DNA of 64,000 nucleotides. It comes from Nanobdellota archaeon (lineage in GTDB: Archaea > Nanobdellota > Nanobdellia > SCGC-AAA011-G17 > JAFCDX01). Where the stretch lies: NCBI GenBank assembly GCA_040753775.1, contig JBFMDT010000001.1, positions 58,584 through 122,583 on the forward strand, given 5' to 3'. Position numbers and translations under genes: made by a program. Below, piece after piece: positions 9,731-61,271 of this stretch (its first letter is position 1; each line of letters begins with the position of its first letter). The notes beneath the pieces are model-generated. The model saw only the letters and a list, made by a program, of their open reading frames with translations, ran no database searches and was not told where the DNA came from.

Positions 9731-9983
9731 GTGGGGGAAGACAGGACTGAGTGGAAAGGTACAGTAAAGAAGGGTTCTATACAAAGGGCAATGAAGATGA
9801 TATTGGATTTGGAAAGGGGGACAGCTAACCATGCTTTCCGCTGTAATGCAGTACAACATGGAACGGAGGCTTGCTTAACTTCCAGGTTCGAAATGTTTCT
9901 GGGTGGTTCCAAGCCCCTCTGGCCGTCCTGACGTCCATACGCACTTCAGGGTTAATAAGCTTTATGGTTGTGTCAGTACTCCT

Positions 9984-10914
9984 GTGATGTCCTGTAATTA
10001 GTTCACACTTATATACTATTCTATATAGTCTTCTTGAGGTGATGTTTTATGTTAAACTTTAAGAAGAAGGTATGGATAGTAAAGCAGAAAGATAAAGGAA
10101 TATTAACAGATTCTGAGATTGCTTCTGCTCAGGATGTTACAAGAAGAGCTGTACAGAAGATATATTCTATTTATAGATTAAATGGATTACAATCCCTAAA
10201 TGATAAGCCTAAAGGAAGAAGGATAGATGATATACTTTATAATCTACAACAAGAGATACTTAAGCTAAGGAAAGAGCAATACGGAGTGCATAAGATAGAA
10301 GGGTTATTAAAAAATAAGGAATTAATTATTTCCCATAACAAGATACATAGATTCCTTAAGTCTAAAGGATTAGTTAAGTTAGAGCCTAAGAAAGGAAGAA
10401 GATACAAGTATATAGATTGGGAAAGAAAACACTCTAATAGCCTCTGGCAGACTGATTATTGCTGGATTCCAAGGTATCATAAATGGATGATAGCATACGT
10501 AGATGATCATTCAAGATTATGCACTGGAGCTAGTTATACTAACGAAGCTACTACAGAAACAGCTATTAACTTGTTAGATAAAGCAATAAACAAATGGAAT
10601 AAGCCAAGAGAAGTGTTAAGTGATAGAGGATCTCAATTCTATGCTGCAAAAGGAGAGAGTTCTTATTATAAGGAGTATCTAAATAGCTTAGGGATTAAGC
10701 TAATCTATTCTTCTATTAAGAAGCCTACTACTACAGGAAAGATAGAGAGATTCTGGCTAACCCATAATACAGAGAGGTGGAGATTTAGTTCTCTAGAGAA
10801 GTTCATTAATTATTACAACTATAAGAGACTCCATATGAGCTTGGATTATCTAACACCTTATGAGGTTTACATAAGAGATTTACCTAATGTGAGAACCTAT
10901 TAGGAGACATCACA
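9984..10914 (+). mobile_element. IS element with imperfect terminal inverted repeats (TGTGATGTCcTgTAAT / rc TGTGATGTCTCCTAAT)
   Basis: Inverted repeats found by eye at 9984-10000 and 10901-10914, bracketing a DDE transposase gene. Confidence 0.6.
10049..10903 (+). CDS. DDE transposase (N-terminal HTH plus rve/integrase-core domain)
   Basis: WQTDYCWIP...DDHSRL...E catalytic-core pattern; N-terminal helix-turn-helix. Confidence 0.8.
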   Translation: MLNFKKKVWIVKQKDKGILTDSEIASAQDVTRRAVQKIYSIYRLNGLQSLNDKPKGRRIDDILYNLQQEILKLRKEQYGVHKIEGLLKNKELIISHNKIHRFLKSKGLVKLEPKKGRRYKYIDWERKHSNSLWQTDYCWIPRYHKWMIAYVDDHSRLCTGASYTNEATTETAINLLDKAINKWNKPREVLSDRGSQFYAAKGESSYYKEYLNSLGIKLIYSSIKKPTTTGKIERFWLTHNTERWRFSSLEKFINYYNYKRLHMSLDYLTPYEVYIRDLPNVRTY

Positions 10915-20878: not shown

Positions 20879-21811
20879 TTAATTTAAATTCATCTTGCTA
20901 TAAAACCCCAAAACATAGCTCAGCACATGGCTAGCTCTCAATGGCTTTTTCAATTCAGGTCCAACTCTAAAGCAATAATCCAATTTATCTCTCAATTCCT
21001 GGCCTAATCCATATTTCTCATTCCCGAATATTAAGGCAATTTTCTTATTCAGCTTAAGAAAACTTGCTAATTGCCTTTCATTTTTATTTCCATGTTTGCT
21101 AAATCCAAAATATAAATATTCATCTGGCAGATTTTTTTCTATCCTTAAATCAAACTTGCTGTAATTAATTCCCTTGGTCTCTTCTTTTGCCTTTTTCAAA
21201 ATTCTTTCAAAATCCTTCCCAGGTATAACAAGCAGGGGAATTCTAAAAACATAGCATATTCTTAAAAAATCTGATATTTCAATAGAGCTCTCTGGCTTTT
21301 CAAGAACAGCAATAAATTTTCTTGTATTTGGTTCAATTGTGTCAATTCTTTTTATTCTTTTTATTCCAACCCTGTATTTATTCTTGTTAAATTCTACATA
21401 AATTACAGCGCCATCATTCCTGTATGCAAACCCCTCCTTCTTCAGATAAGTATTAATCTTCTTGTAAATTTGTTTGGCAGAAAAATTTTGTTTTGTTATG
21501 AATTTGGTTTCAACCCTAAAAAATTTATCCCCAGACTTTTTAAAAGCATATGCAGCATCTTGGCATAGTTCCCTGAATCCATGAAAAGGCTTGTAGTCAA
21601 AATATAAATCAATTATTTCTTTAACCTCATCCAGATTAATTACGCTTTCAATATCAATATCTTCAGCTATTGCTCTGTAATTATCCTCAAATTTAATTTT
21701 GCCTATTTTTTTCTCAAGCTCTCTCTTATTTATGTCATATCTATTTAAAATAAGCAGGTATTTCATAAAAAGTAAGAACAAGAATAATTTATAATGCTTT
21801 TGCTTAATCAA
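20879..21811 (-). CDS. putative RNA methyltransferase: THUMP-like N-terminal region plus SPOUT-like C-terminal domain
   Basis: The C-terminal LIFGNEKYGLGQEL...RASHVLSYVLG resembles the TrmH/SpoU motifs; the track start is TTG, so the true start may be the internal ATG (MKYLL). Confidence 0.4.
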   Translation of the reverse strand: MIKQKHYKLFLFLLFMKYLLILNRYDINKRELEKKIGKIKFEDNYRAIAEDIDIESVINLDEVKEIIDLYFDYKPFHGFRELCQDAAYAFKKSGDKFFRVETKFITKQNFSAKQIYKKINTYLKKEGFAYRNDGAVIYVEFNKNKYRVGIKRIKRIDTIEPNTRKFIAVLEKPESSIEISDFLRICYVFRIPLLVIPGKDFERILKKAKEETKGINYSKFDLRIEKNLPDEYLYFGFSKHGNKNERQLASFLKLNKKIALIFGNEKYGLGQELRDKLDYCFRVGPELKKPLRASHVLSYVLGFYSKMNLN

Positions 21812-26130: not shown

Positions 26131-26230
26131 ATTACACAGCAGTTTATCTTTAAAAATGTTTCTATTTAACAGTAATAATAAATTTATAGTTAGAAATCTT
26201 TAAATACAGAGTAAAAGTAGAAATCCATAA

Positions 26231-26330
26231 GCGGATGTGCCGGAGTGGCCAAACGGGGCAGATACTTTGTAGCCCAACCTCAAGAGCTGTTGGCTTAGTG
26301 CCTACACAGGTTCGAATCCTGTCATCCGCA
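26231..26330 (+). tRNA. tRNA gene, ~100 nt; candidate Leu(CAA) with intron(s), precise structure unresolved
   Basis: 7-bp acceptor complementarity (GCGGATG/CATCCGC); T-arm ACAGG-TTCGAAT-CCTGT; internal CTCAAGA (canonical Leu-CAA anticodon loop) flanked by CCAAC/GTTGG but with 3 extra nt; D-arm GCCGGAGTGGCCAAAC is class-II-like. Confidence 0.55.
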
Positions 26331-26337
26331 TCGTACA

Positions 26338-26958
26338 ATGAAGATGAAAATAAATACAATTATATCCTGGCTGATGAAAGTTGTGATAATATGGCTCCTC
26401 CTTGTGTTTCTATATAAAAAAGATTATCCATTAGCATTATCGGCATTTATATCCATAATAGTATTTCTAATGCCGGCTGTAATTGAAAGGAACTATAAAA
26501 TAAATCTTCCATGGATATTTGACATTCTTATTATAACACCTTTGTTCATACATATCTTGGGAATAACTTACAAATGGTACAATAACCTTTACTTTAGCAG
26601 CTTTTCTCATTTTATTGGAACAATAATAATAGCTCTGCTTGGTTTTATGATCCCCTTTACTTTAAATGCAACAGGCAAAATAAAATTATCTATAAAGATG
26701 ATAATGTTTTTCACAATAATTTTCTCGATAGCAATAGGAGCTGTCTGGGAAATAGCAGAATTTAGTTCAGATGTATTTCTTGAAACAAAATCCCAGCCAA
26801 GCAATACAGACACAATGCTTGACTTGCTCTTTGATGCCTTATCTGGGGTTGTAACTGCCTTCATCGGTGCATGGTACATCAAGAAAATTCCACCCCATAG
26901 ATTAAATAACATAATTGATCCATTTGCAACAATGATGAAAATAGAATATAAAAAATGA
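26338..26958 (+). CDS. hypothetical polytopic membrane protein
   Basis: Hydrophobicity pattern only. Confidence 0.35.
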   Translation: MKMKINTIISWLMKVVIIWLLLVFLYKKDYPLALSAFISIIVFLMPAVIERNYKINLPWIFDILIITPLFIHILGITYKWYNNLYFSSFSHFIGTIIIALLGFMIPFTLNATGKIKLSIKMIMFFTIIFSIAIGAVWEIAEFSSDVFLETKSQPSNTDTMLDLLFDALSGVVTAFIGAWYIKKIPPHRLNNIIDPFATMMKIEYKK

Positions 26959-27512
26959 AAACATTAGCTGAAAAACTAAGAGAATTTAAAAGAGGCCCTG
27001 CAATAATCCTTCCAAAAGATGCTGGATTAATAATAGCATTAACCGGGATAAACAAGGATTCAAAGGTGGTTGATGCAGGAACAGGCTCAGGATTTCTTGT
27101 AGCTTACCTGGCAAACATCTGCAAGGAAGTAACAACTTATGAAAATAGAAAAGAATTCCTTGAGATAGCAAAAATTAATTTAGCCGGATTCAGGAATGTT
27201 AAGATAAAGTTCAAGGACGTTTACAAGGGAATTTCTGAAAAAAATCTTGACTTAATAACTTTAGACTTAAAAGAGCCATGGAAAGTTTTTAAATATGCAG
27301 AAAAGTCTTTAAAAAGCAATGGGTTCTTGGTGTCTTACTTGCCAACAATAAACCAGCTTGAAATTTTGCTGAAGGAAATAAAAAAATATAAATTTAGGTT
27401 GATAAAAGCTATAGAACTGCTTGAAAGGGAATGGGAAACCGAAGACAGGATAAGGCCTAAGTCGCAGATGATAGCCCACACTGGTTTTTTGGTTTTTATT
27501 AGAAAGCTTTAA
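26955..27512 (+). CDS. tRNA (adenine-N1)-methyltransferase TrmI/Gcd14-like (short archaeal form)
   Basis: Rossmann SAM motif (VVDAGTGSGFLVAYLA) with TrmI-like flanking regions. Confidence 0.7.
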   Translation: MKTLAEKLREFKRGPAIILPKDAGLIIALTGINKDSKVVDAGTGSGFLVAYLANICKEVTTYENRKEFLEIAKINLAGFRNVKIKFKDVYKGISEKNLDLITLDLKEPWKVFKYAEKSLKSNGFLVSYLPTINQLEILLKEIKKYKFRLIKAIELLEREWETEDRIRPKSQMIAHTGFLVFIRKL

Positions 27513-29337: not shown

Positions 29338-31788
29338 ATGAAAAACACAATTTTAATTATTTTTGTTATGTTCGCTTTCTTGATTGTACTATCCTTCTTC
29401 GGCCTGTTCAAGCCTACTGGCCTTGTATCTTATAAGCAGGTAGAAATAGAGAAGCAAGCAGAAAATGAAATAAACAATCTTGGGGAAGCAAGAATAATAA
29501 TTGAATTAAAAGATGAAAAAATAAGTACATTAGCAGAGCCTGAATTCAAAGAAAAGCATAAATTCAAAAAAAGAATTGCCGGCAATCTTACAAAAAAAGG
29601 GCTTTCAAAAATAAAAAATAATCCAAATATAGAAAAAATTTATTTTGACCAGGTGTTGTATGTAATGCTTCCGGATTCTGTGCCGTTAGTACAGGCCTCA
29701 AATGCGCATTCCTTAATTGTTAAAAATAATCTAACAGGAGAAGGCGAATCAATTTGTTTAGTAGATACTGGAGTCAATTATCTGCATCAAGATTTGGGCG
29801 GTTGTTTTGGTACTAATTGCAAGGTTGTATATGGCTATGATTTTGTAAATAGTGACAATGACCCAATGGACGATAATGGTCATGGAACTCATGTTGCAGG
29901 GATACTGGCAGCCAATGGTAATTTAAAGGGCGTTGCACCAGATGCCAAGATAATTGCAATGAAAGTCTGCAACAGTGCTGGCTCATGCTACTCTTCTGAT
30001 GTCCTAGCTGCAATAGATTCGTGTGTAAGCAATAAAAACTTATACAATATTTCTGCAATAAGTATAAGCCTCGGAGGTGGTTTGTATTCCAGCTACTGTG
30101 ACGATTCTTATCCCTTATTTAGCAGCTCAATAAATAATGCAGTATTAAACAATATATCAGTAGTAATATCAGCAGGCAACTCTGGCAGCACTTCCCAAAT
30201 AGCAGTTCCTTCTTGTATAAAAAATGCAATAGCAACATCAGCCACAACAAAGCAGGACCAGATAGCATCCTACAGCAATACAAACAACATAACAGATTTG
30301 CTTGCCCCAGGCTCAAGTATATACTCAACAGCAGGGCCATGCTTAAGCGGATGTAGCTGTTCTGGAAATTACATGACATGCTCAGGGACATCAATGGCAA
30401 CTCCCCATGTTGCTGCATCAATAGCCATCTTAAACCAATACTACAAAGAGGAATACAACAAAGAGATTACATTAATTGAAGCAGAATCAGCATTAAAGAG
30501 CTCAGGTAAATTAATCAATCAGCAGCTAAACCTAAGCAGGATAAATATATATAACACGATTATTGCACTCGATAAAGCTCCACCAGCAGTTTCATTATAT
30601 ATAAGCCAAAATGAAATAACTTATCAGGATAATGTTAATACAACAATAAACTTTTCAGCATCAGACACAACTTTGATGAATTACAAATTAAACATAACTT
30701 ATCCTAACTCAAGTCTGCTTGGAACTTTCACAAATAACCTGACTTTAACAAAAGAAAATCTGACTGAAAAAGGAAATTACACAATCATCTTGTCCGCCTC
30801 TGACCTGAACAACAATTCTGCAATAATCTCTTCAGGCATATTGGTTAAAAACAGCTCAATTCCATCAGTTAGCTTGCTACACCCTGAAGATGATTCAATA
30901 ATAACAACAAGCAATGTTTCACTCTCATGCGCTGCAGCAGACGATTCAGCTTTATCATCAATAAGCCTTTACACAAATATAACTGGAAGCTTTGCTCAAG
31001 CCCAAATAGTTAATGTAACAGGAACAAATAAAACAATGATTTTTGAGATGAATTTAAGCAATATGTCATTTATCTGGAACTGCTTAGCTGTTAATGATAA
31101 AAATAATTCAGCATATGCTTCAAAAAATTATACATTAACAGTAATAATTAACAGCCAGCCATCAATAGACTTTTTTATTCCAGAAAACACTGTAATAACA
31201 ATAAACGAAAATAGTTCCCAACTCCTTTCAATTCTTGCCTCAGACCAGGATAACAACACATTAGACTATGCATGGTACCTTGACAATAATAAAGTAAACT
31301 CTGAAAAAAATTATACCTATTATGCAGACTTTAATTCAGCTGGCACACATAACATAACAGCAATAGTATCTGACTTTTTATCGCAAGACTCAAGAGCCTG
31401 GAATGTAACAGTTAATGACATTCAAGAAACCCCAACCACCCCATCCTCAGGAGGAGGCGGAGGAGGCGGGGGTGGCTCTAGCAAAAATGAGGAAAGCAGT
31501 GAGGAATTAAAAATTACATCAGAAGAATCAAAAACTAAAAGCATTGTTACAACAGCAGCAATTAAAGAAACATGCAATGATGGAATCAAGAACCAGGATG
31601 AAACTGGAATAGACTGTGGTGGAATATGTGAAGAATGTATAATCGACAAAGTTGAGCTTCCTACAGGCATGAGTGTTTACATAGGAAAGGTATTTGGGAA
31701 TATTAATTACAATGTTATTTTGCTTTTGATTCTATTTTTTGCTTTAATAGTCTTAAGGCACAAAAAGCCGCTTAAAAAACAAAAGTAA
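29338..31788 (+). CDS. subtilisin-like serine protease with C-terminal repeat module, poly-Gly linker, Cys-rich knob and TM anchor
   Basis: Catalytic triad contexts DTGV, HGTHVAG, GTSMATPHV; C-terminal W-x-VTVNDI module, G9 linker, then a TM helix plus KKQK tail. Confidence 0.85.
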   Translation: MKNTILIIFVMFAFLIVLSFFGLFKPTGLVSYKQVEIEKQAENEINNLGEARIIIELKDEKISTLAEPEFKEKHKFKKRIAGNLTKKGLSKIKNNPNIEKIYFDQVLYVMLPDSVPLVQASNAHSLIVKNNLTGEGESICLVDTGVNYLHQDLGGCFGTNCKVVYGYDFVNSDNDPMDDNGHGTHVAGILAANGNLKGVAPDAKIIAMKVCNSAGSCYSSDVLAAIDSCVSNKNLYNISAISISLGGGLYSSYCDDSYPLFSSSINNAVLNNISVVISAGNSGSTSQIAVPSCIKNAIATSATTKQDQIASYSNTNNITDLLAPGSSIYSTAGPCLSGCSCSGNYMTCSGTSMATPHVAASIAILNQYYKEEYNKEITLIEAESALKSSGKLINQQLNLSRINIYNTIIALDKAPPAVSLYISQNEITYQDNVNTTINFSASDTTLMNYKLNITYPNSSLLGTFTNNLTLTKENLTEKGNYTIILSASDLNNNSAIISSGILVKNSSIPSVSLLHPEDDSIITTSNVSLSCAAADDSALSSISLYTNITGSFAQAQIVNVTGTNKTMIFEMNLSNMSFIWNCLAVNDKNNSAYASKNYTLTVIINSQPSIDFFIPENTVITINENSSQLLSILASDQDNNTLDYAWYLDNNKVNSEKNYTYYADFNSAGTHNITAIVSDFLSQDSRAWNVTVNDIQETPTTPSSGGGGGGGGGSSKNEESSEELKITSEESKTKSIVTTAAIKETCNDGIKNQDETGIDCGGICEECIIDKVELPTGMSVYIGKVFGNINYNVILLLILFFALIVLRHKKPLKKQK

Positions 31789-31821
31789 GTTATTTAAACT
31801 AAAATTTATACCTTATCTTGT

Positions 31822-32001
31822 GGGCCCGTAGCGCAGCCTGGAAATCAAAAAGATTAGGCAAATAGCGTAACAGGTTCCTAAGTCTTTGATGATTAACGAC
31901 AATTTGCCTTGATGGCAGAAAGAGAATTATCTAAGGCTGAAAGACCTGTCGGTCGTGGGAGGTTCTTAAAGAATCCACGAATTCAAATCCCATCGGGCCC
32001 G
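31822..32001 (+). tRNA. tRNA-Arg(CCT) interrupted by three introns (D-loop ~21 nt, canonical 37/38 ~63 nt, T-arm ~22 nt)
   Basis: 5' exon GGGCCCGTAGCGCAGCCTGG is a textbook archaeal tRNA 5' end; 3' end TTCAAATCCCATCGGGCCCG completes a 7-bp acceptor stem and T-arm. Pairing partners for the D-stem (GCGC/GCGT), anticodon stem (ACAGG/CCTGT, loop TTCCTAA) and T-stem (GTGGG/CCCAT) are only found if three inserts are removed. Confidence 0.7.
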
Positions 32002-32020: not shown

Positions 32021-32509
32021 TTATTTTGCATCAGGATAATTATTGGGATTAGTCAATCTTTTTACATAAAGTGCATAATTTTTATAAAGAAATTCCAGTT
32101 CACCATCAGTAGTTATGTAATTCCCAACAACTCCGTCGCTCAACCTTATGTTGCTTAATTTGTCTGTCCTCAAAGCAACATATAAAGCTGTATCAGAGGC
32201 TGGTCCTATTGTAAGCTCTATGGTCCCAAGCTTTATAGTAACTCCAGATTTTAGATCATTCACTATCAATTCCTTGGGCATATACCCTAAATTAATATCA
32301 CTTCCTTTGCCAAGAGATAGTTTTACAGGCCCAGTTATTTTTGGCCCTTCAACTACTTTTTGTTGCTCAGCAGACTTATCTTCTGCAACATTAGAAACGT
32401 TCTTAACAACATAGGCTGTGGGTGTACCAGTATTCATGAAGACAGTTGCTAAAATAGCTCCAGCTACAATTACACCCAATATAACCAAAATAATAATCCC
32501 TTTATTCAT
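32021..32509 (-). CDS. hypothetical N-terminally anchored secreted protein
   Basis: N-terminal TM/signal anchor; no family recognised. Confidence 0.35.
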   Translation of the reverse strand: MNKGIIILVILGVIVAGAILATVFMNTGTPTAYVVKNVSNVAEDKSAEQQKVVEGPKITGPVKLSLGKGSDINLGYMPKELIVNDLKSGVTIKLGTIELTIGPASDTALYVALRTDKLSNIRLSDGVVGNYITTDGELEFLYKNYALYVKRLTNPNNYPDAK

Positions 32510-35019: not shown

Positions 35020-35031
35020 AGTGCGTCAGCT

Positions 35032-35118
35032 GGGATTTGAACCCAGATCCTCGCCTTGGAAGGGCGAGATATTGGCCCATTTCTGACTAGCCATTATACT
35101 ACTGACGCATAATCAAGA
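35032..35118 (-). tRNA. tRNA-Gly(TCC) with a ~14-nt insertion (probable intron) in the D-loop
   Basis: On the minus strand: acceptor GCGTCAG/CTGACGC, anticodon arm TCGCC-CTTCCAA-GGCGA, T-arm CTGGG-TTCAAAT-CCCAG all contiguous; the D-region (GTAT...23 nt...ATAT) is about 14 nt too long. Confidence 0.7.
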
Positions 35119-38083: not shown

Positions 38084-38593
38084 TTATGATTTAACTACCT
38101 TCCCCCTTTCTGATGGAACAATCACCTTTTTGGCCTTATTGAACTCAGCCTTCTTTCTGTTAAAATATTCATAAAGAAATATGGCTAATGCGCTTACTTC
38201 GGAATGCGGTTGGTTTGTCACAGAAATATTGCAATCTGATAGTTTATAAAATTCTGGAGCAACCTTTTCCCCGCCAACTATAGCCAAAACATCTTTGTTC
38301 CTCAATTCATCTATTTTGCTACTTAGCTCTACACCATATGCAGTAAGATGGACGATTTTAAAACCATCTTTTTTCTTGCTTTCAATTAGTTTTATTGGAT
38401 TTTCTGTAAATTCTATCTCAAAATTTCCGCCAAAATTCTTAACAACATTCCTTACGCTGTCTTCAAATGCCTTGTCCCTTTGCCCGGAATAATACAACTT
38501 ATGAGCGCCAAAGGCCCTTGCAGCCAAAGCAACATGCATAGTTAATCTCTTATCCCTCTCAATCCTGTGGTTAAGCCTTAAAATATTTATCAT
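38084..38593 (-). CDS. tRNA (cytidine56-2'-O)-methyltransferase aTrm56 (SPOUT)
   Basis: ILRLNHRIERDKRLTMHVALAARAFGA matches the conserved aTrm56 N-terminus. Confidence 0.75.
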   Translation of the reverse strand: MINILRLNHRIERDKRLTMHVALAARAFGAHKLYYSGQRDKAFEDSVRNVVKNFGGNFEIEFTENPIKLIESKKKDGFKIVHLTAYGVELSSKIDELRNKDVLAIVGGEKVAPEFYKLSDCNISVTNQPHSEVSALAIFLYEYFNRKKAEFNKAKKVIVPSERGKVVKS

Positions 38594-48542: not shown

Positions 48543-49940
48543 TTGCTGCATTATATAAAAATGACTAAGGTTTTGCTTGTCCAACCAAACTTTAATGTAA
48601 ACGTAGAAAAGGCATATGATGCTTGTTTGCCTCTGCCCCTTATTTACATAGGAACTTTTTTAAATAAAAATGGCCATGAAGCAAAGATATTTGACAGAAG
48701 TTTGCATTCCGACAATAGAGACTTTATAAGAGCGCTGAAACAATTTAATCCTGATATTGTCTATACTAATGTTATAATGGGCAGATTGATATTTGATTGC
48801 ATTACATTTTCTAAAATAGCAAAATCACACAGCGATGCATTGGTTATCTGGGGAGGAATATTGCCGACCCTAAGACCAGCAATTCCTTTGAATAGCGGGT
48901 ACGTTGACTTTGTTATAAGAGGTGAAACAGAAGAAACTATGTTAGATATAGCAAACACCTTTAAAGCCAGGAAAACCAGAGAAACAATTTCTAAACTGCG
49001 CAATGTAAACTACAATCCATCTAGACCAAGAATGGACCTGGATTTGCTTGCTGAGCCTGACTATGAATTAGTTGATGTTAAAAAATATACGGACTTCGGT
49101 GTTATCACATCAAGAGGATGTCCTTATAGGTGTGCTTTTTGTTACATAGATGGCTACTGGAAGTCTCTGCATCTAGAAAAATGGCGCGGTATGTCTACAG
49201 ATAAAGCTATAAACATGATAAGAAACCTTGTTACTAAATACAACATAAGAGATATAGCAATTTATGATGACAATTTTCCAACAGATAAAAAGAGAGCTAT
49301 AGAAATAATGCATGGAATAAGCGATCTTGGTTTGAAAATTTTCATACTGGGCAGAACAAACTATTGCCAAGATGACATAATGCAAGCTTATAAAAAGGCT
49401 GGCGTGTGGACCATACAGATTGGTTTTGAATCTGGCTCACAAAGAATGCTCAATTTTATGAAAAAGGACGTAACAGTGCAGCAGATGAAATATGCAGTAA
49501 AGCAATGCAAAAAATACAAAATACTCTGCGAAGGAAGTTTTGTTATTGGCTTTCCAGAAGAAAATGTAGCAGACTTAAGTGAAACTGTAAAATTTATTAA
49601 GCAAAATACTCCAGATTACGCTGGAATTAAGCTATATCACCCATATCCAGAAACAGATTTTTATGACTACTGTATTAAAAATAGGCTTATAACAGAACCT
49701 AAAAGACTTGAAGACTGGGGTAATGTTAGTGTATTCAATTGGGCAAATATCAATGTAAGCAAAATTCCAACAGATGTTTTAATGAAGACAAAGGCAAACA
49801 TAGAAAGATTTTTGTTTATGAAATCATACAGCAGAAAGCTCTTTAGAATGCTACTATCAGGAAGAATTCCTAAGTTCAGCAAAATCTTAAATGCATCTAA
49901 ACATATCTTAAGTTTATGGACAAATAAGCCTATCCAATAA
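48543..49940 (+). CDS. B12-binding-domain radical SAM enzyme (paralog 1)
   Basis: N-terminal cobalamin-binding-like domain; CxxxCxxC (RGCPYRCAFC). Confidence 0.8.
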   Translation: MLHYIKMTKVLLVQPNFNVNVEKAYDACLPLPLIYIGTFLNKNGHEAKIFDRSLHSDNRDFIRALKQFNPDIVYTNVIMGRLIFDCITFSKIAKSHSDALVIWGGILPTLRPAIPLNSGYVDFVIRGETEETMLDIANTFKARKTRETISKLRNVNYNPSRPRMDLDLLAEPDYELVDVKKYTDFGVITSRGCPYRCAFCYIDGYWKSLHLEKWRGMSTDKAINMIRNLVTKYNIRDIAIYDDNFPTDKKRAIEIMHGISDLGLKIFILGRTNYCQDDIMQAYKKAGVWTIQIGFESGSQRMLNFMKKDVTVQQMKYAVKQCKKYKILCEGSFVIGFPEENVADLSETVKFIKQNTPDYAGIKLYHPYPETDFYDYCIKNRLITEPKRLEDWGNVSVFNWANINVSKIPTDVLMKTKANIERFLFMKSYSRKLFRMLLSGRIPKFSKILNASKHILSLWTNKPIQ

Positions 49941-54068: not shown

Positions 54069-54821
54069 TTACTTCCTCCCAACCACAGTCCAGCTATTAT
54101 TGTTTACGTGATAAATTTTAACATTCGTTAGCTCTTTCAACAAACTCTTAGCTTCCCTTTTAGTCCAGTAATTAGCAATTCTAGGTAATAACTGGTCAAA
54201 AACAATAGAATGTACATGCCTAAATCTAAAAATTTTAAGTTGTTTTAAATAAGGTGATTTTGGTTTAGCCAATTTCAAATAAATCCATAAAGAAATGCTA
54301 AACAAATATGCAATCTTATGCGTCAAAGAAATAGGCAGTCTGCTAGTTACCTTTCTTATAGGATTTACATACCTAACAATCCATTCATTTCCTTCATAAC
54401 CATAAACCCAAATCAATAAGGTCCCATTCTTCTTCAATGCCCTTACAAGATTTTCAATAGCCTTCTCAGGAAACTCCAAATGATGTATAACCCCAATGGA
54501 AAAAACAAAATCAAACTTATTCTTGTAATTAATGTCGTAAATGCTTTTGTATTCAACTTTTGCATTCTTGAATTCTTTTAAAGTTTTTCTAGCAGCTCTA
54601 ACAGTTCTTTTGTCGTAATCAAAGGCAACTAAACTCTTAGCCCCGTTTTTCAAGCAAAAATAGCTGTTCCTACCCATTCCGCATGCAGCATCTAAAATAC
54701 TTTTTCCCTTGATAAATCTCTTGTTAACAGGATAAACCCATTTCCAAAACTGTACTTCATACTCCTTGTACATTTCAGGATACTTGCTCCATTCATAACC
54801 AAACCTCTCAGTAGATGCCAT
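54069..54821 (-). CDS. class I SAM-dependent methyltransferase
   Basis: Motif I LDAACGMGRN. Confidence 0.8.
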   Translation of the reverse strand: MASTERFGYEWSKYPEMYKEYEVQFWKWVYPVNKRFIKGKSILDAACGMGRNSYFCLKNGAKSLVAFDYDKRTVRAARKTLKEFKNAKVEYKSIYDINYKNKFDFVFSIGVIHHLEFPEKAIENLVRALKKNGTLLIWVYGYEGNEWIVRYVNPIRKVTSRLPISLTHKIAYLFSISLWIYLKLAKPKSPYLKQLKIFRFRHVHSIVFDQLLPRIANYWTKREAKSLLKELTNVKIYHVNNNSWTVVGRK

Positions 54822-56928: not shown

Positions 56929-58865
56929 ACAAGGAGATTATCCCTTACATTTTGATTGTAGCAATTGCACTTACCCTTACTTACAGCATGTTTGCTCCAG
57001 GGTTTATGCTTTACACAGATAATCCAACACACATAGCCTCAGTCCATTTTCTTGTTGATAATTTGCTAAAAGAACAAAAATGGATAACTGGGTGGAGCAA
57101 CTGGGATTTTCTTGGATTTCCTATGCTGCTTTACACTTATCAGTTAAGCTACTTGCTGATTGCTTTTCTAAGCCTGTTTCTTAGTGTAAATCTTGCCTAT
57201 AAAATAATCATCCTTTTTTCAATTATTTTTCCATCAATAGCCCTTTACATATTGCTTAAAACCAAATATAAAATAATTCCGGCAGCAATAGCATCAATTC
57301 TCTTCCTGCTTGCAAGGCCGATATTAAGCCATCAACTAGTAGGCATGTACAACGAATTCATAAGCATTGGCTTCTTTATCCTTTTTGTATATTTCCTGCA
57401 AAAGGATTATAGCGCTAAAAACAGCATAATTTTGGCAGTTCTCTTCTTCCTTATAGTGATTTCCCATCCTTATTCAATTTTTATCCTGCTCTATTTCTCA
57501 TTAATCCTTCTTTTTGTTTATAGAAAGGAAGTTAATTTTATAAAAAACTACTTAAAAATATCTGGAATAGGCTTGCTGCTCTCATCCTATTACCTGCTTC
57601 CAATAATACTGACAAGCAGCTGGCTAGTGAAGTTCGGCTGGCCCATAGGTCCAAGCTTGATCTCAACCTTTATCCACCTTGTATATCAAATATTGTTCTC
57701 AGTCCCAAGCTATTTTACAATATACGATTTCATCAAGGCATCTTTGTCTTTTAACTTAATAGCAATAAAATACCTTGCTGAAATAATTCTCGCAAGTCTT
57801 CCACAATTACTTACTGCAGTGCTCGCTTCAATAGGCCTTTACTATTACAAAAAAAATGACAAGTTTCTTTCTTTAGTTCTCTTATTTTCAATAGCCTCTT
57901 TTATTTTAGGGACAGGCTTTTGGTATTATCTTCCCTTAATAAAAAATATTGACTTGCTCCAGGGAATAGTCTCGTATAAGTTTATTTATTATGGAAGAAT
58001 TGGCTTGGCCGTATTTGCAGCCTATGCCCTATCAAAAATAAAACTAAAAAAAATAAAATACTTGCTCTTTATACCAGCATTTCTTCTCTTGATTTCTGGC
58101 TCATTTGGTTACTTGGTTGAAAAAGATTGGCTGGCAACATCAGAAAACTCTCTTTATATGAATGAAGTTAATTACATACAAGATTGGATTAAGAATAATA
58201 TTAATGGTTCGGAAACAAGGGTAATATACCAGCACCTTGCAGGAAACTTTAGGCAAAACTCTGTACTTGATACAAGCTCTGTCTTTGCAATGTCAAGCTA
58301 TTTCACAAATGTTCCATCCATAGGAATCTGGAGTGGGGGTATTCCTTATCCAACTGAAAACCTAAGATCAACAGAAAACCAAAGGCTGCTTGGTAGTGGG
58401 GTGCAAAATATAACAGACAAAGAGCTGATAGAAAAAATGAAATTAGTGAACGCAAAATACATTGTAGCAGTTGAGAAAAATTTAAAAAACAAGCTAAGAA
58501 ATGATAAATTTATAGAAAAAATTAATACAACCTATCTAAGCATATTTGAATTAAAAGATTACAGGCCAGAATGGATAGAAACAGATGGCACTTATAAATT
58601 AAACAAATTCAAAGACAATGAAATAGGATTTTACATAGAAAATGCAACCTATGCTCTGGTCAAAATGCAGTACCATCCTTATTGGAAAGCAGGCCTAGAC
58701 AACAAAACTTTGAAAATAAATAAGAATGAAAATAATTTGATGATTCTTGATGTAGATGAAATGAAGGGTAATGTAAAATTAAACTACAGCTCAAAAAATA
58801 TCCTCGGAATTATTTTAACGCTTATCGGTCTTATCTTTATTATGAAAATCCGCTCCAAGAGCTAG
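56925..58865 (+). CDS. large polytopic membrane protein, similar architecture to the upstream gene
   Basis: Same architecture as above; start overlaps the upstream stop. Confidence 0.4.
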   Translation: MNKEIIPYILIVAIALTLTYSMFAPGFMLYTDNPTHIASVHFLVDNLLKEQKWITGWSNWDFLGFPMLLYTYQLSYLLIAFLSLFLSVNLAYKIIILFSIIFPSIALYILLKTKYKIIPAAIASILFLLARPILSHQLVGMYNEFISIGFFILFVYFLQKDYSAKNSIILAVLFFLIVISHPYSIFILLYFSLILLFVYRKEVNFIKNYLKISGIGLLLSSYYLLPIILTSSWLVKFGWPIGPSLISTFIHLVYQILFSVPSYFTIYDFIKASLSFNLIAIKYLAEIILASLPQLLTAVLASIGLYYYKKNDKFLSLVLLFSIASFILGTGFWYYLPLIKNIDLLQGIVSYKFIYYGRIGLAVFAAYALSKIKLKKIKYLLFIPAFLLLISGSFGYLVEKDWLATSENSLYMNEVNYIQDWIKNNINGSETRVIYQHLAGNFRQNSVLDTSSVFAMSSYFTNVPSIGIWSGGIPYPTENLRSTENQRLLGSGVQNITDKELIEKMKLVNAKYIVAVEKNLKNKLRNDKFIEKINTTYLSIFELKDYRPEWIETDGTYKLNKFKDNEIGFYIENATYALVKMQYHPYWKAGLDNKTLKINKNENNLMILDVDEMKGNVKLNYSSKNILGIILTLIGLIFIMKIRSKS

Positions 58866-59877
58866 CTATAGACAGCAATGCCCTTGTATTGACTAGCATG
58901 CTTGGATACCCAATGCATCTGAATCTGCAGTCTTTACAGAACCAGTAGCTTCCCTGTAAATTTCTTGCTTCAATTGCCTTGCTGTTATTCCATACCTTCC
59001 TTATATCTCCCTTCATAATCTCCTTTGGAAACCCGGAGCACGGCATTGAGACATTTCCATCCGGCTTAATTGAGATTGTTATATCCATTGCCCTGCATCC
59101 TATCTCAGCTAATCCGCCCTTCCTCAACATTGTAAAATAGATGTTTGGATTAGCAACAGTACTTCCAAACTCTTTTTTTAGGCTCTTGACATCGCTGATA
59201 AATTTCTCCCTATCCGGAACTAAGCTTTCTTGCTCTTTATCAAACATTTCAGGCTTAGGATTCTTTACAGTTTGCAATTCTTTTAACGCCATTGTATATT
59301 CTATCTGTGCATTAAATGCCTTGGCCAATTTAACAAGCCTTCTTAAATTTTCATAACTTGCATTTCTTGTTACAACAGTATGTATCATAAATTTTTTCCC
59401 TCTTTTCTTTAGCTCATTCATCCCTTCCAGAGCCTTCCTAAATGCATTTGGGTAATTTCTCAGTTTGTCATGCTCCCTTCCAACATTATCTAGGCTTATC
59501 CTGACAACATCCGCATCCATTACCTTGTCCGCATTCTCTTTCAAAACAGAGCCATTAGTGCTCACAAAAACATTCATTCCCTTCTTTTTTATGTGCTTTA
59601 TTAAAATATCTATGTCCTTTCTAAGCAAGGGCTCTCCGCCGCTGAAATTTATTATCTTGGTGCCAAGTTCTTTTAGCTGGTCTACTACCTGCAGAGCCTC
59701 TTTTGTGTTAAGCTCAGGGGTCCATGCCTTTTTATGTTTATTAACGCAGCAAAACCCGCACTTCATATTGCAGTTATAGCTTATTTCCCACTGGCAGAAC
59801 AAAGGGACTCTTTTTCCAAAATACTTGACTGCAACAATTCCAGGTAATAATTTTAGTCCGGTAATTATTTTTTTCAT
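58840..59877 (-). CDS. radical SAM enzyme with C-terminal SPASM/twitch-like Cys cluster
   Basis: CNMKCGFC (Cx3Cx2C) and C-terminal C...CKDCRFRC. Confidence 0.75.
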   Translation of the reverse strand: MKKIITGLKLLPGIVAVKYFGKRVPLFCQWEISYNCNMKCGFCCVNKHKKAWTPELNTKEALQVVDQLKELGTKIINFSGGEPLLRKDIDILIKHIKKKGMNVFVSTNGSVLKENADKVMDADVVRISLDNVGREHDKLRNYPNAFRKALEGMNELKKRGKKFMIHTVVTRNASYENLRRLVKLAKAFNAQIEYTMALKELQTVKNPKPEMFDKEQESLVPDREKFISDVKSLKKEFGSTVANPNIYFTMLRKGGLAEIGCRAMDITISIKPDGNVSMPCSGFPKEIMKGDIRKVWNNSKAIEARNLQGSYWFCKDCRFRCIGYPSMLVNTRALLSIASSWSGFS

Positions 59878-61271
59878 TTTGTTATAAACTTGAACAAACT
59901 AAAGGCCCTTATTACTAGTTTTGGGAATTCTGAGATTTTAGTATGCATGATTCTCCTGAAGATATAGCCAGCAGAAAAGTAAAATGACCTGTATGCAAGC
60001 TTGTGGTAGTATGTTAGTTCTTTTGCTGAAACGCTTGGCAACTCTATTACTGGCCTGCCATATCTCTGAAATCTCCACCAGTCTTTTGTCAGCAGTTTTA
60101 TTCCCTTGTCATGCTCAGCCATTGTAAGCACTTCTGTTCCAGGCAATGGTGTCATAACAGAAAATTGCGCATAATCCAATTTTAGTTCTTTTGCAAACCT
60201 TATTGTTTTCATTATGGTTTCCTTTGTATCATAAGGATGCCCTATAATAAAGAATCCATGCGTCTGTAGCCCTACTTTTTTAGCCAATGCTACAGCCCTT
60301 CTAACCTGCTCCAAAGTAATGCCTTTGTGTATAATATTTAGTATTTTTTGATCTCCTGACTCAACCCCAAACTTCACTAATCTACATCCTGCTTTTTTCA
60401 TAATCCTAAGCAACTCTTCTGTAATGAAATTAACCCTTGTATCGCATGCCCATTCTATTTTTATCCCTCTTCTTATGAGCTCTTTGCATATTTCCATTGT
60501 CCTTTGCGGATAAGCAGTAAAAGTGTCATCAACAAACATTATTTTCTTTACGTTGTATTTCTTGTATAGATACTCAATTTCATCAACAACATTCTTCGGG
60601 CTTCTTACTCTGTATTTTCCCTGGTGTATAACCTTTGATGAGCAGAAAGCGCAATTATATGGACAACCCCTTCCAGTAACCATAATTAATGACTTTCCCA
60701 AAAATGGATTTCCATATCTTTCCAAAGGAAGCATGTCATAAGCAGGCCATGGCAACTTGTCCAAATTTTGTATCAGTGCTCTTCTTGGATTTATCTTAAC
60801 CTTATCTTTTTTATCCCTGTAACATAATCCTTTTATCTGCGAAAGCCTCTTTCCGCTAATCAGCTCTTTAAATGTTTCCTCACCCTCGCCTATTGTAATC
60901 ATATCAACATACTTAAATTTCATGCATTCTTCAGGCAATGCAGAAGGATGCGGCCCCCCCCAGACTACTTTAATACCCGGATTTATCCTTTTAACAATCT
61001 CTGATATTTTCATGACCTCAAGAATAGTTGGTGTAACACAGGGTATTCCTACAAACCTTGGGGCTTCCCTTTTTATTACATTTTCAATGACATTCTGCCA
61101 CTTGTTTCCATAATACCTTAGGTCAATTAGGCCAACACTAAAATTATTTTCTCTTAAATAACTTGCAATGTAGGCAATGCCCAAAGGAAACATATCAGCA
61201 TCTATGTGTCTTACATCTATGTTTCCAAAAGCCCTTATGTCAGGCGGTGAAAAAAATATAACATCTTTCAT
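59874..61271 (-). CDS. B12-binding-domain radical SAM enzyme (paralog 2)
   Basis: RGCPYNCAFC; same architecture as 48543-49940. Confidence 0.8.
   Translation of the reverse strand: MKDVIFFSPPDIRAFGNIDVRHIDADMFPLGIAYIASYLRENNFSVGLIDLRYYGNKWQNVIENVIKREAPRFVGIPCVTPTILEVMKISEIVKRINPGIKVVWGGPHPSALPEECMKFKYVDMITIGEGEETFKELISGKRLSQIKGLCYRDKKDKVKINPRRALIQNLDKLPWPAYDMLPLERYGNPFLGKSLIMVTGRGCPYNCAFCSSKVIHQGKYRVRSPKNVVDEIEYLYKKYNVKKIMFVDDTFTAYPQRTMEICKELIRRGIKIEWACDTRVNFITEELLRIMKKAGCRLVKFGVESGDQKILNIIHKGITLEQVRRAVALAKKVGLQTHGFFIIGHPYDTKETIMKTIRFAKELKLDYAQFSVMTPLPGTEVLTMAEHDKGIKLLTKDWWRFQRYGRPVIELPSVSAKELTYYHKLAYRSFYFSAGYIFRRIMHTKISEFPKLVIRAFSLFKFITK

What the first reader, a model, noticed from the sequence alone, without database searches (positions are those of the whole stretch)
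31822..32001. tRNA-Arg(CCT) gene apparently split by three introns (D-loop, canonical 37/38, T-arm)
The 180-nt span begins with a textbook archaeal tRNA 5' end (GGGCCCGTAGCGCAGCCTGG) and ends with TTCAAATCCCATCGGGCCCG. The D-stem (GCGC/GCGT), anticodon stem (ACAGG/CCTGT, loop TTCCTAA) and T-stem (GTGGG/CCCAT) partners are separated by inserts of about 21, 63 and 22 nt. The T-arm insert can pair with flanking exon sequence (CGTGG...CCACG), as expected for relaxed BHB-like splice motifs. Multi-intron tRNAs at non-canonical positions are known from a few archaeal lineages; here they sit alongside two other intron-bearing tRNAs in the same window, which suggests the whole genome has a permissive splicing endonuclease.
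Basis: seen in the sequence. Interest (0 to 1): 0.7.

Follow-up and report, generated by a model that had tools for sequence, protein, structure and literature searches.

The report
Arginine tRNA gene with three introns
This is a real arginine tRNA gene from a small DPANN archaeon, interrupted by three short introns that standard tRNA finders miss; such genes are already known from other archaea, so it is a solid but not unprecedented find.

Summary
Confirmed. Window 31822-32001 (+) is a tRNA-Arg(CCU) gene made of four exons and three introns. Removing the introns gives a perfect 75-nt cloverleaf. That product is 73/75 and 72/75 identical to one-intron orthologues that Rfam scores as tRNA, and 68/75 identical to intronless relatives, with two compensatory anticodon-stem changes.

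Boundaries are refined to 20 nt (31842-31861, position 19/20), 63 nt (31881-31943, canonical 37/38) and 22 nt (31960-31981, position 53/54). Relatives lack intron 1 and/or intron 3 exactly at these junctions. [quoted passage not shown]

The other two tRNA genes in the window, Leu(CAA) and Gly(UCC), also have non-canonical introns. The organism is a DPANN 'Nanoarchaeota/Woesearchaeota' MAG, a group already reported to have many disrupted tRNA genes, so this is a new member of a known kind.

Two extras:
- Intron 2 holds a box C/D-like kink-turn module conserved in all five orthologues (box D degenerate in the window, no target found).
- In close relatives the same locus has been overrun by a LAGLIDADG endonuclease gene that travels with its own intact tRNA-Arg(CCU).

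No RNA data or splicing-endonuclease gene could be examined.

The parts
31793..31798 (+). TATA-like box (TTTAAA), centred about 26 nt upstream of the mature 5' end; candidate archaeal promoter
   Evidence: Read from the sequence. Similar boxes lie 28-30 nt upstream of the Leu (26198-26205) and Gly (35139-35133) tRNA genes. Promoter function is inferred, not tested.
31822..31841 (+). Exon 1: tRNA positions 1-19 (acceptor 5' strand, U8 A9, D-stem 5' strand GCGC, D-loop AGCCUGG)
   Evidence: Identical 20-mer in orthologues L002 and L003.
31842..31861 (+). Intron 1, 20 nt, D-loop position 19/20 (AAATCAAAAAGATTAGGCAA)
   Evidence: BHB: central helix GCCT/AGGC (4 Watson-Crick pairs), bulges GG|A and AA|A, inner helix AATC/GATT. 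0/200,000 shuffles do as well. Absent in L002, L096, L086, L112 and L113, whose D-loop is AGCCTGGATA. An intron with the same ends lies at the same site in tRNA-Arg(UCU) of L084.
31862..31880 (+). Exon 2: positions 20-37 (A20 U20a A21, D-stem 3' strand GCGU, A26, anticodon stem 5' strand ACAGG, loop UUCCUA with anticodon CCU)
31881..31943 (+). Intron 2, 63 nt, canonical position 37/38
   Evidence: BHB: outer helix is the anticodon stem (5 bp); central helix TTCC/TGAA (3 of 4 pairs); bulges TA|A and AG|A; inner helix GTCTT/AAGGC. 337/200,000 shuffles do as well. The same architecture is present in L001, L002, L003 and L096. The L096 junction TTCCTA|T fixes the position at 37/38.
31882..31892 (+). 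Within intron 2: 5' strand of the 3-bp stem (GTC), the 3-nt bulge and box C. The 7-mer UUGAUGA spans 31886-31892; its first two U plus the preceding U make up the bulge
   Evidence: TGATGA is invariant in all 5 orthologues while the 3-4 nt before it vary.
31905..31917 (+). Within intron 2: apical hairpin TGCC-TTGAT-GGCA
   Evidence: Compensatory change to TACC...GGTA in L002. L001 folds a different, weak hairpin at the same place; RNAfold predicts none for L003.
31919..31937 (+). Within intron 2: conserved 12-nt 'guide-like' stretch AAAGAGAATTAT (31919-31930), box D position CTAA (31931-31934; CTGA in L002, L003, L096), 3' strand of the stem GGC (31935-31937)
   Evidence: In L002, L003 and L096 the arrangement stem / 3-nt bulge / GAUGA opposite CUGA / stem is a consensus C/D kink-turn. 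The window and L001 have A in place of G at the second sheared pair.
31944..31959 (+). Exon 3: positions 38-53 (A38, anticodon stem 3' strand CCUGU, variable loop CGGUC, T-stem 5' strand GUGGG)
31960..31981 (+). Intron 3, 22 nt, T-arm position 53/54 (AGGTTCTTAAAGAATCCACGAA)
   Evidence: Relaxed BHB (HBh' type): central helix CGTG/CACG (4 Watson-Crick pairs), bulges GG|A and AA|T, inner helix GGTTC/GAATC, no outer helix. 0/200,000 shuffles do as well. Absent from all four orthologues and from all 56 metagenome loci with the same 3' half, so it is private to this lineage.
31982..32001 (+). Exon 4: positions 54-73 (T-loop UUCAAAU, T-stem 3' strand CCCAU, acceptor 3' strand CGGGCCC, discriminator G73); no encoded CCA
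   Evidence: Identical 20-mer in L002, L003, L096 and 56 metagenome loci.

Best explanation
Window 31822-32001 (+) is a functional gene for tRNA-Arg(CCU), the cognate reader of AGG codons, in a DPANN archaeon that NCBI labels 'Nanoarchaeota archaeon', with Woesearchaeota-like relatives.

The gene is probably transcribed from its own TATA-type promoter as a precursor of about 180 nt. That precursor carries three protein-spliced introns: 20 nt at 19/20 in the D-loop, 63 nt at the canonical 37/38 site, and 22 nt at 53/54 at the start of the T-loop. [quoted passage not shown]

By inference from established archaeal tRNA splicing, the splicing endonuclease EndA cuts after the second nucleotide of each 3-nt bulge. 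The ligase RtcB then joins the four exons, and probably circularises the introns. CCA is added afterwards. The product is a 75-nt tRNA with all standard tertiary positions and A20.

Shown here: the cloverleaf, the BHB geometry, the presence/absence of introns across orthologues, and compensatory stem changes. Inferred: transcription, cleavage, ligation and the type of enzyme.

A secondary claim, held at about 0.55: intron 2 nests a box C/D-like kink-turn module. Its terminal stem is the inner helix of the BHB, and it resembles the C/D sRNA in euryarchaeal tRNA-Trp introns. In the window's copy box D is degenerate (CUAA).
For: - Spliced sequence: a perfect tRNA-Arg(cct) cloverleaf by ARAGORN.
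- Identity of the spliced product: 73/75 to L002 and 72/75 to L096. Rfam scores those one-intron genes as tRNA at 46.8 and 51.4 bits. It is 68/75 identical to intronless L086 and L113, with two compensatory anticodon-stem pairs (C:G to A:T, A:T to C:G).
- Intron presence/absence at the exact junctions: L002 and L096 lack introns 1 and 3; L003 lacks intron 3; the L001 remnant lacks intron 3.
- BHB in the required register at all three junctions; shuffles reaching the observed score are 0, 337 and 0 of 200,000.
- Precursor fold: z = -4.8, with acceptor, D and anticodon stems closed.
- AGG makes up 46% of Arg codons in the window's ORFs, 16.3 per 1000 codons, so the tRNA is needed.
- No other tRNA-Arg(CCU) is in the window.
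- TATA-like box about 26 nt upstream, as for the two other tRNA genes.
- Both other tRNAs in the window carry non-canonical BHB introns.
- Literature: several DPANN lineages are reported to have loop-bearing EndA and many disrupted tRNA genes, some still undetected (PMC5829648).
- C/D-like module: fixed architecture in 5/5 orthologues; invariant TGATGA; a conserved 12-mer upstream of CUGA/CUAA; stem GYC/GGC; a covarying apical hairpin.
Against: - There are no transcript data.
- No EndA or RtcB gene lies in the 64-kb window, so the enzyme's specificity is unknown.
- The central helix of intron 2 has one mismatch (C35 x U).
- Intron 3 has no outer helix, so it needs a permissive enzyme.
- Intron 3 is unique to this genome, so no covariation supports it.
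- For the C/D-like module: box D is CUAA in the window; there are no C'/D' boxes; no target was found in the host tRNA, the window or about 450 kb of related contigs; no Rfam C/D family reaches threshold; and the box C region can alternatively pair with the 'guide' stretch in a plain long hairpin.
Confidence: 0.85

Rival explanations
1. The locus is a decaying tRNA pseudogene. The three inserts are disabling insertions that are never removed, and AGG is read by tRNA-Arg(UCU) or by another copy elsewhere in the genome.
For: A closely related genome (L001) does carry a broken copy of this gene at the same locus. Intron 3 is unique to this genome. Only 64 kb of a contig of at least 129 kb was seen.
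Against: All four stems and all conserved tertiary positions are intact. The truly decayed L001 copy, by contrast, shows G19 changed to T, an acceptor mismatch and loss of positions 20-31. All three inserts carry BHB motifs in exactly the register that restores the orthologous sequence. AGG usage is high.
Confidence: 0.06
2. Intron 2 is only a long structural hairpin that presents the BHB. The TGATGA and CT(G/A)A motifs are one strand each of an ordinary helix, not a kink-turn or C/D RNA.
For: In register 0, GTCTTTGATGATT pairs with AATTATCTAAGGC at 12 of 13 positions in the window, and this is the MFE structure. Box D is CUAA in the window and in L001. There are no C'/D' boxes, no target and no Rfam hit.
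Against: A plain helix should covary. Instead both strands are invariant in sequence while neighbouring positions vary, and L002's T-to-C change breaks a register-0 pair. L002, L003 and L096 have the exact consensus: 3-bp stem, 3-nt bulge, GAUGA opposite CUGA-GGC. In L003 and L001 register 0 leaves a 3x3 internal loop exactly where the kink-turn bulge would be. The module is kept in L001 although the host tRNA there is dead. Kink-turns with A at this position still bind L7Ae (PMC3985660).
Confidence: 0.4
3. The D-loop intron is 21 nt, as the first reader drew it (CCTGG|AAATC...GGCAAA|TAGCG), giving D-loop AGCCUGGUA with U20.
For: This also gives a valid cloverleaf (one search used these boundaries).
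Against: The BHB rule (cut after the second nucleotide of each 3-nt bulge) places the 3' cut one base earlier. The 20-nt version reproduces the D-loop AGCCTGGATA of L002 and the intronless L086/L112 exactly (L096 has AGTCTGGATA and L113 AGCCTGGAAA, with the same GGA junction). It also keeps A20, which from my own knowledge is an arginine identity element in well-studied systems.
Confidence: 0.12

Closest known systems
[quoted passage not shown]
   Same: Up to three BHB-type introns in one tRNA gene, at canonical and non-canonical positions. Missed by conventional tRNA finders. Intron positions change rapidly between relatives.
   Different: Different phylum (DPANN rather than Crenarchaeota), an AT-rich and probably mesophilic genome, a different tRNA, and a probably different endonuclease architecture (alpha4 with L3 loop reported for DPANN, versus (alpha-beta)2 with the Crenarchaea-specific loop).
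Disrupted tRNA genes of DPANN archaea, e.g. [quoted passage not shown]
   Same: Same superphylum. Relaxed BHB motifs in the T-arm. The authors explicitly expected undetected disrupted tRNA genes.
   Different: This particular gene and its combination of positions (19/20 + 37/38 + 53/54) was not found described in the papers I read. I could not check the tRNA tables of that paper.
Box C/D sRNA nested in the euryarchaeal tRNA-Trp(CCA) intron (Clouet d'Orval 2001 and Singh 2004, as summarised in PMC4090602 and PMC7994747)
   Same: An intron of about 63-65 nt at 37/38 in a tRNA with C34 C35. Box C lies just inside the 5' splice site and box D just inside the 3' splice site. Conserved far beyond what splicing needs.
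   Different: Host is tRNA-Arg(CCU), not Trp. There are no C'/D' boxes. No complementarity to C34 or position 39 of the host tRNA. Box D is degenerate in the window. The reviews call the Trp case unique.
tRNA gene disruption by a mobile element in Caldiarchaeum subterraneum (Sugahara 2012, PMC3293823) and the Randau-Soll idea that disrupted tRNA genes resist integration (cited in PMC4390854)
   Same: In relatives, the same tRNA-Arg locus is broken by a mobile cassette, leaving orphan 5' and 3' tRNA pieces. The breakpoints lie at or near the window's intron positions.
   Different: Here the element is a LAGLIDADG endonuclease gene travelling with a complete replacement tRNA-Arg(CCU). No causal link to the window's introns has been shown.

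Membership tests
Archaeal tRNA gene with BHB (protein-spliced) introns, multi-intron class | Excision of the inserts yields a canonical cloverleaf with conserved tertiary nucleotides | tested here: met
   ARAGORN calls tRNA-Arg(cct) on the spliced sequence. U8, A14, G15:C48, G18 G19, A21, U33, R37, G53:C61, U54 U55 C56 and A58 are all present (read from the sequence).
Archaeal tRNA gene with BHB (protein-spliced) introns, multi-intron class | A bulge-helix-bulge or relaxed (HBh'/hBH) motif at every exon-intron pair, in the register that gives the mature sequence | tested here: met
   Intron 1: hBHBh' with a weak outer helix (one pair, then a 1-nt bulge before the D-stem). Intron 2: hBHBh' with 3/4 central pairs. 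Intron 3: HBh'. Shuffle controls: 0, 337 and 0 of 200,000.
Archaeal tRNA gene with BHB (protein-spliced) introns, multi-intron class | Orthologous genes without the intron are colinear with the predicted spliced product | tested here: met
   L002 and L096 (no intron 1 or 3), L003 (no intron 3), L086, L112 and L113 (no introns).
Archaeal tRNA gene with BHB (protein-spliced) introns, multi-intron class | The genome encodes a splicing endonuclease able to cut relaxed BHB motifs, and an RtcB ligase | not testable with these tools
   Neither gene is among the window ORFs of at least 150 aa that were scanned with Pfam (42 ORFs, including all major non-nested ORFs except three: 54069-54821, 58840-59877, 61311-62153).
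Archaeal tRNA gene with BHB (protein-spliced) introns, multi-intron class | The spliced mature tRNA exists in the cell | not testable with these tools
   No transcript data are available.
Box C/D sRNA nested in a tRNA intron (tRNA-Trp type) | Box C (RUGAUGA) and box D (CUGA) brought together by a short terminal stem to form a kink-turn | tested here: inconclusive
   Window: stem GUC/GGC, bulge UUU, GAUGA, but box D is CUAA. L002, L003 and L096 have the full consensus with CUGA.
Box C/D sRNA nested in a tRNA intron (tRNA-Trp type) | Internal C'/D' boxes with 12-nt spacers | tested here: not met
   The 12-nt spacers are present, but the centre is a simple covarying hairpin with no conserved GA dinucleotides.
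Box C/D sRNA nested in a tRNA intron (tRNA-Trp type) | Guide complementary to a target (for Trp, the host tRNA at positions 34 and 39), with the modified base paired to the fifth nucleotide upstream of box D/D' | tested here: not met
   No convincing match to the host tRNA by inspection. Matches in the window and related contigs are at chance level. No rRNA was available.
Box C/D sRNA nested in a tRNA intron (tRNA-Trp type) | Match to a curated C/D family | tested here: not met
   Nothing for the window's intron at E up to 10. Only a sub-threshold SNORD34 hit on the L096 intron (19.5 bits, E = 4.5).
Group I intron carrying a homing endonuclease (considered for the LAGLIDADG elements in relatives) | Group I ribozyme core around the ORF | tested here: not met
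   No Intron_gpI hit at gathering score in L001, L118, L252, L256 or L257 (L258 was not scanned). No such ORF is in the window.

The most novel reading that the evidence does not exclude
The tRNA-Arg(CCU) locus of this lineage is under attack by a LAGLIDADG homing cassette that carries its own replacement tRNA-Arg(CCU) and uses conserved tRNA ends as homology arms. Under this reading, the window's non-canonical introns at 19/20 and 53/54 sit at or near the cassette's breakpoints because they are one of two things: scars of earlier invasions, or interruptions that protect the resident gene (the Randau-Soll protection idea caught in action). Separately, the C/D-like RNA of intron 2 would be a trans-acting RNA with a function of its own, which would explain why it is kept in L001 after its host tRNA died.
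Probability: 0.15. Interest if true: 0.8.

Novelty: new member of a known kind. Interest (0 to 1): 0.5.

Why it matters
- **Annotation.** This tRNA is the cognate reader for a codon that makes up nearly half of all arginine codons here, yet standard tools do not see it. MAG-based claims that DPANN archaea 'lack' tRNAs can therefore be artefacts. Kaneta et al. 2018 called for exactly this kind of manual curation.
- **Intron turnover.** Among close relatives the same three tRNA genes (Arg, Leu, Gly) carry introns at different positions. This gives a small natural series for studying how BHB introns are gained and lost.
- **A possible second C/D-bearing tRNA intron.** If the C/D-like module is functional, it would be a second case of a tRNA intron carrying a kink-turn or guide RNA. 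Reviews describe the tRNA-Trp case as unique.
- **A possible mechanism.** The endonuclease-plus-tRNA cassette in relatives suggests how tRNA genes get broken and replaced.

Tried and rejected
- **Direct detection.** ARAGORN, with and without intron options, and Rfam at gathering and at E up to 10 do not find the gene. At a lowered threshold ARAGORN gives a wrong Leu(tag) model.
- **Exact exon pattern** with a 0-30-nt D-loop gap: no match in GTDB species representatives or JGI metagenomes.
- **Anticodon-loop plus box C pattern:** 71 hits in genome contigs and more than 120 in viral contigs. The genome hits were inspected and are chance; the viral hits were not inspected, but a pattern with only 14 specified bases is expected to match by chance.
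- **Look-ups by identity:** the downstream 162-aa protein and the 100%-identical S2 protein are not on record.
- **Brute-force single-deletion scan** of the Leu and Gly genes with ARAGORN: too permissive to place the introns. Replaced by a BHB scanner plus comparison with the L001 orthologues.
- **Generic BHB scan:** with G-U pairs allowed it gives many false positives. Significance was therefore assessed only at junctions fixed independently by orthologues.
- **First reading of box D** as the CNGA just 3' of GGC: rejected. That GA belongs to the BHB central helix (NGAA pairing with UUC at positions 32-34). The kink-turn partner of box C is the CU(G/A)A 5' of GGC.
- **Guide-target searches** in the host tRNA, the window and about 450 kb of related contigs: only chance-level matches, and no rRNA genes among the fetched loci.
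- **tRNA-Trp genes** for comparison: none in the fetched loci.
- **Group I intron** around the LAGLIDADG ORFs: no hit.
- **EndA, RtcB, fibrillarin, Nop5, L7Ae:** none found among the window ORFs scanned.

Full report
**Observation.**
They fill most of a 232-nt gap between an S8 protease ORF (29338-31788, +) and a 162-aa ORF (32021-32509, -). ARAGORN finds no tRNA in the window in default mode, and nothing at this locus with introns allowed. Rfam finds nothing here at gathering score or at E up to 10. Once the three inserts are removed, ARAGORN calls a perfect tRNA-Arg(cct): 7-bp acceptor stem, D-stem GCGC/GCGU, anticodon stem ACAGG/CCUGU, T-stem GUGGG/CCCAU. The standard tertiary nucleotides are all present. 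Exons are 63% G+C and introns 34%, in a 32-38% G+C window. The precursor folds at -63.6 kcal/mol (z = -4.8; 0 of 200 shuffles fold as well). In that fold the acceptor, D and anticodon stems are closed, and one hairpin protrudes at each predicted intron site.

**Organism.**
The S8 protease and ribosomal protein S2 have best named hits in 'Nanoarchaeota archaeon', 'Candidatus Woesearchaeota' and 'Pacearchaeota' MAGs. The S2 protein is 100% identical to an NCBI 'MAG: Nanoarchaeota archaeon' protein on a 128,932-nt contig. This is a DPANN archaeon with about 35% G+C.

**Comparative evidence.**
Homologues of the flanking protease led to syntenic contigs. [quoted passage not shown] Five orthologous tRNA-Arg(CCU) genes can be compared:

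| Locus | Intron 1 (D-loop) | Intron 2 (anticodon) | Intron 3 (T-arm) | Notes |
|---|---|---|---|---|
| window | 20 nt | 63 nt | 22 nt | |
| L002 | none | 64 nt | none | D-loop AGCCTGGATA, T-arm contiguous |
| L096 | none | 64 nt | none | D-loop AGTCTGGATA, T-arm contiguous |
| L003/L004 | about 45 nt, relaxed | 60 nt | none | |
| L001 | (broken copy) | retained | none | see last section |

Rfam scores L002 and L096 as tRNA at 46.8 and 51.4 bits. The window's spliced product is 73/75 and 72/75 identical to theirs. It is 68/75 identical to the completely intronless genes L086 and L113. Against L086, two anticodon-stem pairs differ on both sides (C:G to A:T and A:T to C:G). So the exon joins predicted for the window exist as uninterrupted DNA in relatives, and the stems evolve under pairing constraint.

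**Intron boundaries and BHB motifs.**
I used the rule that each cut falls after the second base of a 3-nt bulge, with the two bulges separated by 4 bp. This rule is from established knowledge of archaeal splicing. I checked each junction that the orthologues require.
- **Intron 1 (31842-31861).** Central helix GCCU/AGGC, bulges GG|A and AA|A, inner helix AAUC/GAUU with a 5-nt loop. None of 200,000 intron shuffles does as well. The product D-loop is AGCCUGGAUA, identical to the intronless relatives and containing A20. tRNA-Arg(UCU) of L084 has an intron at the same site with the same ends (AAAU...GGCAA).
- **Intron 2 (31881-31943).** The anticodon stem is the outer helix. Central helix UUCC/UGAA (3 of 4 pairs), bulges UA|A and AG|A, inner helix GUCUU/AAGGC. 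337 of 200,000 shuffles do as well. The L096 junction UUCCUA|U fixes the site at 37/38.
- **Intron 3 (31960-31981).** Central helix CGUG/CACG, bulges GG|A and AA|U, inner helix GGUUC/GAAUC, no outer helix. This is a relaxed HBh' motif. None of 200,000 shuffles does as well. Only one pair of cuts can restore GUGGGUUCAAAU.

**Context in the window.**
The other two tRNA genes are also interrupted at non-canonical sites.
- **tRNA-Leu(CAA), 26231-26330.** It has a 16-nt intron at 30/31 (central helix GGGC/GCCC). Its L001 orthologue has contiguous GGCAGCCUCAAG there and instead an intron at 37/38.
- **tRNA-Gly(UCC), 35108-35022 (-).** It has an 18-nt D-loop region where the Rfam model expects 2. This is best explained by a 15-nt intron at 22/23. 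Its L001 counterpart has an anticodon-loop intron instead.

All three genes have a TATA-like box 26-30 nt upstream. AGG makes up 46% of arginine codons in the window's ORFs, so a working tRNA-Arg(CCU) is expected.

**Mechanism.**
By inference from the established archaeal pathway, EndA cuts the six sites, RtcB joins the exons and probably circularises the introns, and CCA is added afterwards because it is not encoded. No EndA, RtcB, L7Ae, Nop5 or fibrillarin gene was found among the window ORFs scanned. Kaneta et al. 2018 report alpha4-type EndA with an extra L3 loop in several DPANN lineages, linked to more tRNA gene disruption (their survey included a Woesearchaeota and a Pacearchaeota genome). 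They note that missing tRNAs point to undetected disrupted genes (PMC5829648).

**Intron 2 is more than a spacer.**
All five orthologues share one fixed layout. In order:
- 3-bp stem G-Y-C
- 3-nt bulge
- GAUGA (box C; UGAUGA is invariant)
- 12 nt
- a variable central region: a 4-bp apical hairpin in the window, L002 and L096 (UGCC/GGCA becomes UACC/GGUA in L002)
- a conserved 12-mer, AAAGAGAAUUAY
- CU(G/A)A
- GGC
- NGAA (the BHB central helix)

In L002, L003 and L096 this is a consensus box C/D kink-turn whose terminal stem is the inner helix of the BHB. The window and L001 have CUAA, with A at the second sheared pair. Such a variant can still bind L7Ae (PMC3985660). The intron's length and position resemble the tRNA-Trp intron that nests a C/D sRNA, which reviews call a unique example (PMC4090602; PMC7994747).

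Evidence against a true methylation guide:
- There are no C'/D' boxes.
- No complementarity to the host tRNA, and no better-than-chance target in the sequences at hand.
- No Rfam C/D hit.
- An alternative register in which the box C region pairs with the 12-mer region as a plain helix.

I rate a kink-turn/C-D-like function at about 0.55.

**What lies next door in relatives.**
L001 shares the window's gene order from the ABC transporter to the PKD protein. There the resident gene is broken. Exon 1 (ending ...CCUGU) is followed by a 218-aa LAGLIDADG ORF, then a complete intronless tRNA-Arg(CCU) of a different sequence type, and then the old gene from U32 onward. That remnant includes intron 2 and has an acceptor mismatch.

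Homologues of the ORF (36 found) sit immediately upstream of a complete tRNA-Arg(CCU) in every context whose DNA was read: L252-255, L256, L257, L258, and a remnant in L118. In L252, L257 and L258 an orphan 5' tRNA piece ending near G22 lies upstream of the ORF. In L118 and L257 an orphan 3' piece starting exactly at U54 lies downstream. Rfam finds no group I intron in the five of these loci that were scanned.

The 53/54 breakpoint coincides with the window's intron 3, and the 5' breakpoints (18-22) lie near intron 1. This recalls mobile-element models of tRNA gene disruption and the Randau-Soll protection idea (PMC3293823; PMC4390854). No causal link is shown.

**Verdict.**
The observation and the interpretation both hold. 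Three-intron tRNAs are documented in Pyrobaculum (PMC4390854), and disrupted tRNAs are documented in DPANN, so this is a new member of a known kind. It has two leads worth following: the C/D-like intron and the endonuclease-plus-tRNA cassette.

Noticed in passing
L001:9326-10219; L118:4600-4780; L252:1440-2600; L256:1500-2262; L257:1460-2600; L258:1140-2240: A family of LAGLIDADG ORFs (36 homologues) lies immediately upstream of a complete tRNA-Arg(CCU) gene in every context whose DNA was read. The unit is flanked by orphan, decaying 5' (to about G22) and 3' (from U54) pieces of a displaced tRNA. A conserved GGAARATTTAWATAA follows the 5' piece. In L001 it has broken the orthologue of the window's gene. 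It looks like a homing cassette that brings its own replacement tRNA. There is no group I intron signal in the five loci scanned (L258 not scanned).
   Followed up: partly
L001:10113-10185: The C/D-like intron 2 is kept almost intact in L001: box C, the 12-mer with two changes, CUAA and GGC. This is so even though its host tRNA has lost positions 20-31 and has an acceptor mismatch. That hints the intron RNA may have a function of its own.
   Followed up: partly
window 26231-26330 (+): tRNA-Leu(CAA) with a 16-nt BHB intron at non-canonical position 30/31 (GGCAG|ATACTTTGTAGCCCAA|CCTCAAGA). Rfam misses it, and ARAGORN miscalls it as Leu(aag). The L001 orthologue (1357-1451) has no intron there but has one at 37/38.
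   Followed up: yes
window 35022-35108 (-): tRNA-Gly(UCC) with a 14-15-nt insert in the D-arm. Best BHB is at 22/23, central helix GGCT/GGCC; an alternative junction within a repeated AATGG is possible. The L001 counterpart has a long anticodon-loop intron instead.
   Followed up: partly
L084 (minus strand, 136-nt gene), L077, L116/L131: Other DPANN tRNAs with the same 3' half carry D-loop introns right after G19. The tRNA-Arg(UCU) intron of L084 has the same ends (AAAT...GGCAA) as the window's intron 1, which suggests shared ancestry or intron transposition between Arg isoacceptors.
   Followed up: partly
L090 and L092 (tRNA-Arg(UCU)-like genes of 199 and 257 nt): The anticodon-region insert contains a unit of about 58 nt (…GGTTGGAGTGAACGACGATTCGTTCACTGCCCGTCATCTTTCATAGAAGAAAGCTGAC) present twice in L090 and three times in L092. 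This is a tandemly expanding intron or duplicated 3' splice region.
   Followed up: no
window 9816-9930 (-) and 10049-10903 (+): A 5S rRNA gene stands alone, with no 16S or 23S nearby. It is directly next to an IS-type integrase ORF (rve core plus HTH).
   Followed up: no
window 38084-38593 (-), 26955-27512 (+), 20879-21811 (-): Three RNA methyltransferase genes: aTrm56 (tRNA Cm56), a GCD14-like (m1A58-type) enzyme right after tRNA-Leu, and a SpoU-family enzyme. Cm56 would thus be made by a protein enzyme, not a guide RNA, in this organism.
   Followed up: no
window ORFs overall: Arginine is encoded almost only by AGA (283) and AGG (264). All four CGN codons together occur 27 times in 16,229 codons.
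   Followed up: yes
window 48543-49940 (+), 59874-61271 (-), 62203-63588 (-): Three paralogous B12-binding radical SAM proteins lie within a glycosyltransferase-rich surface-polysaccharide region (41.9-63.6 kb).
   Followed up: no
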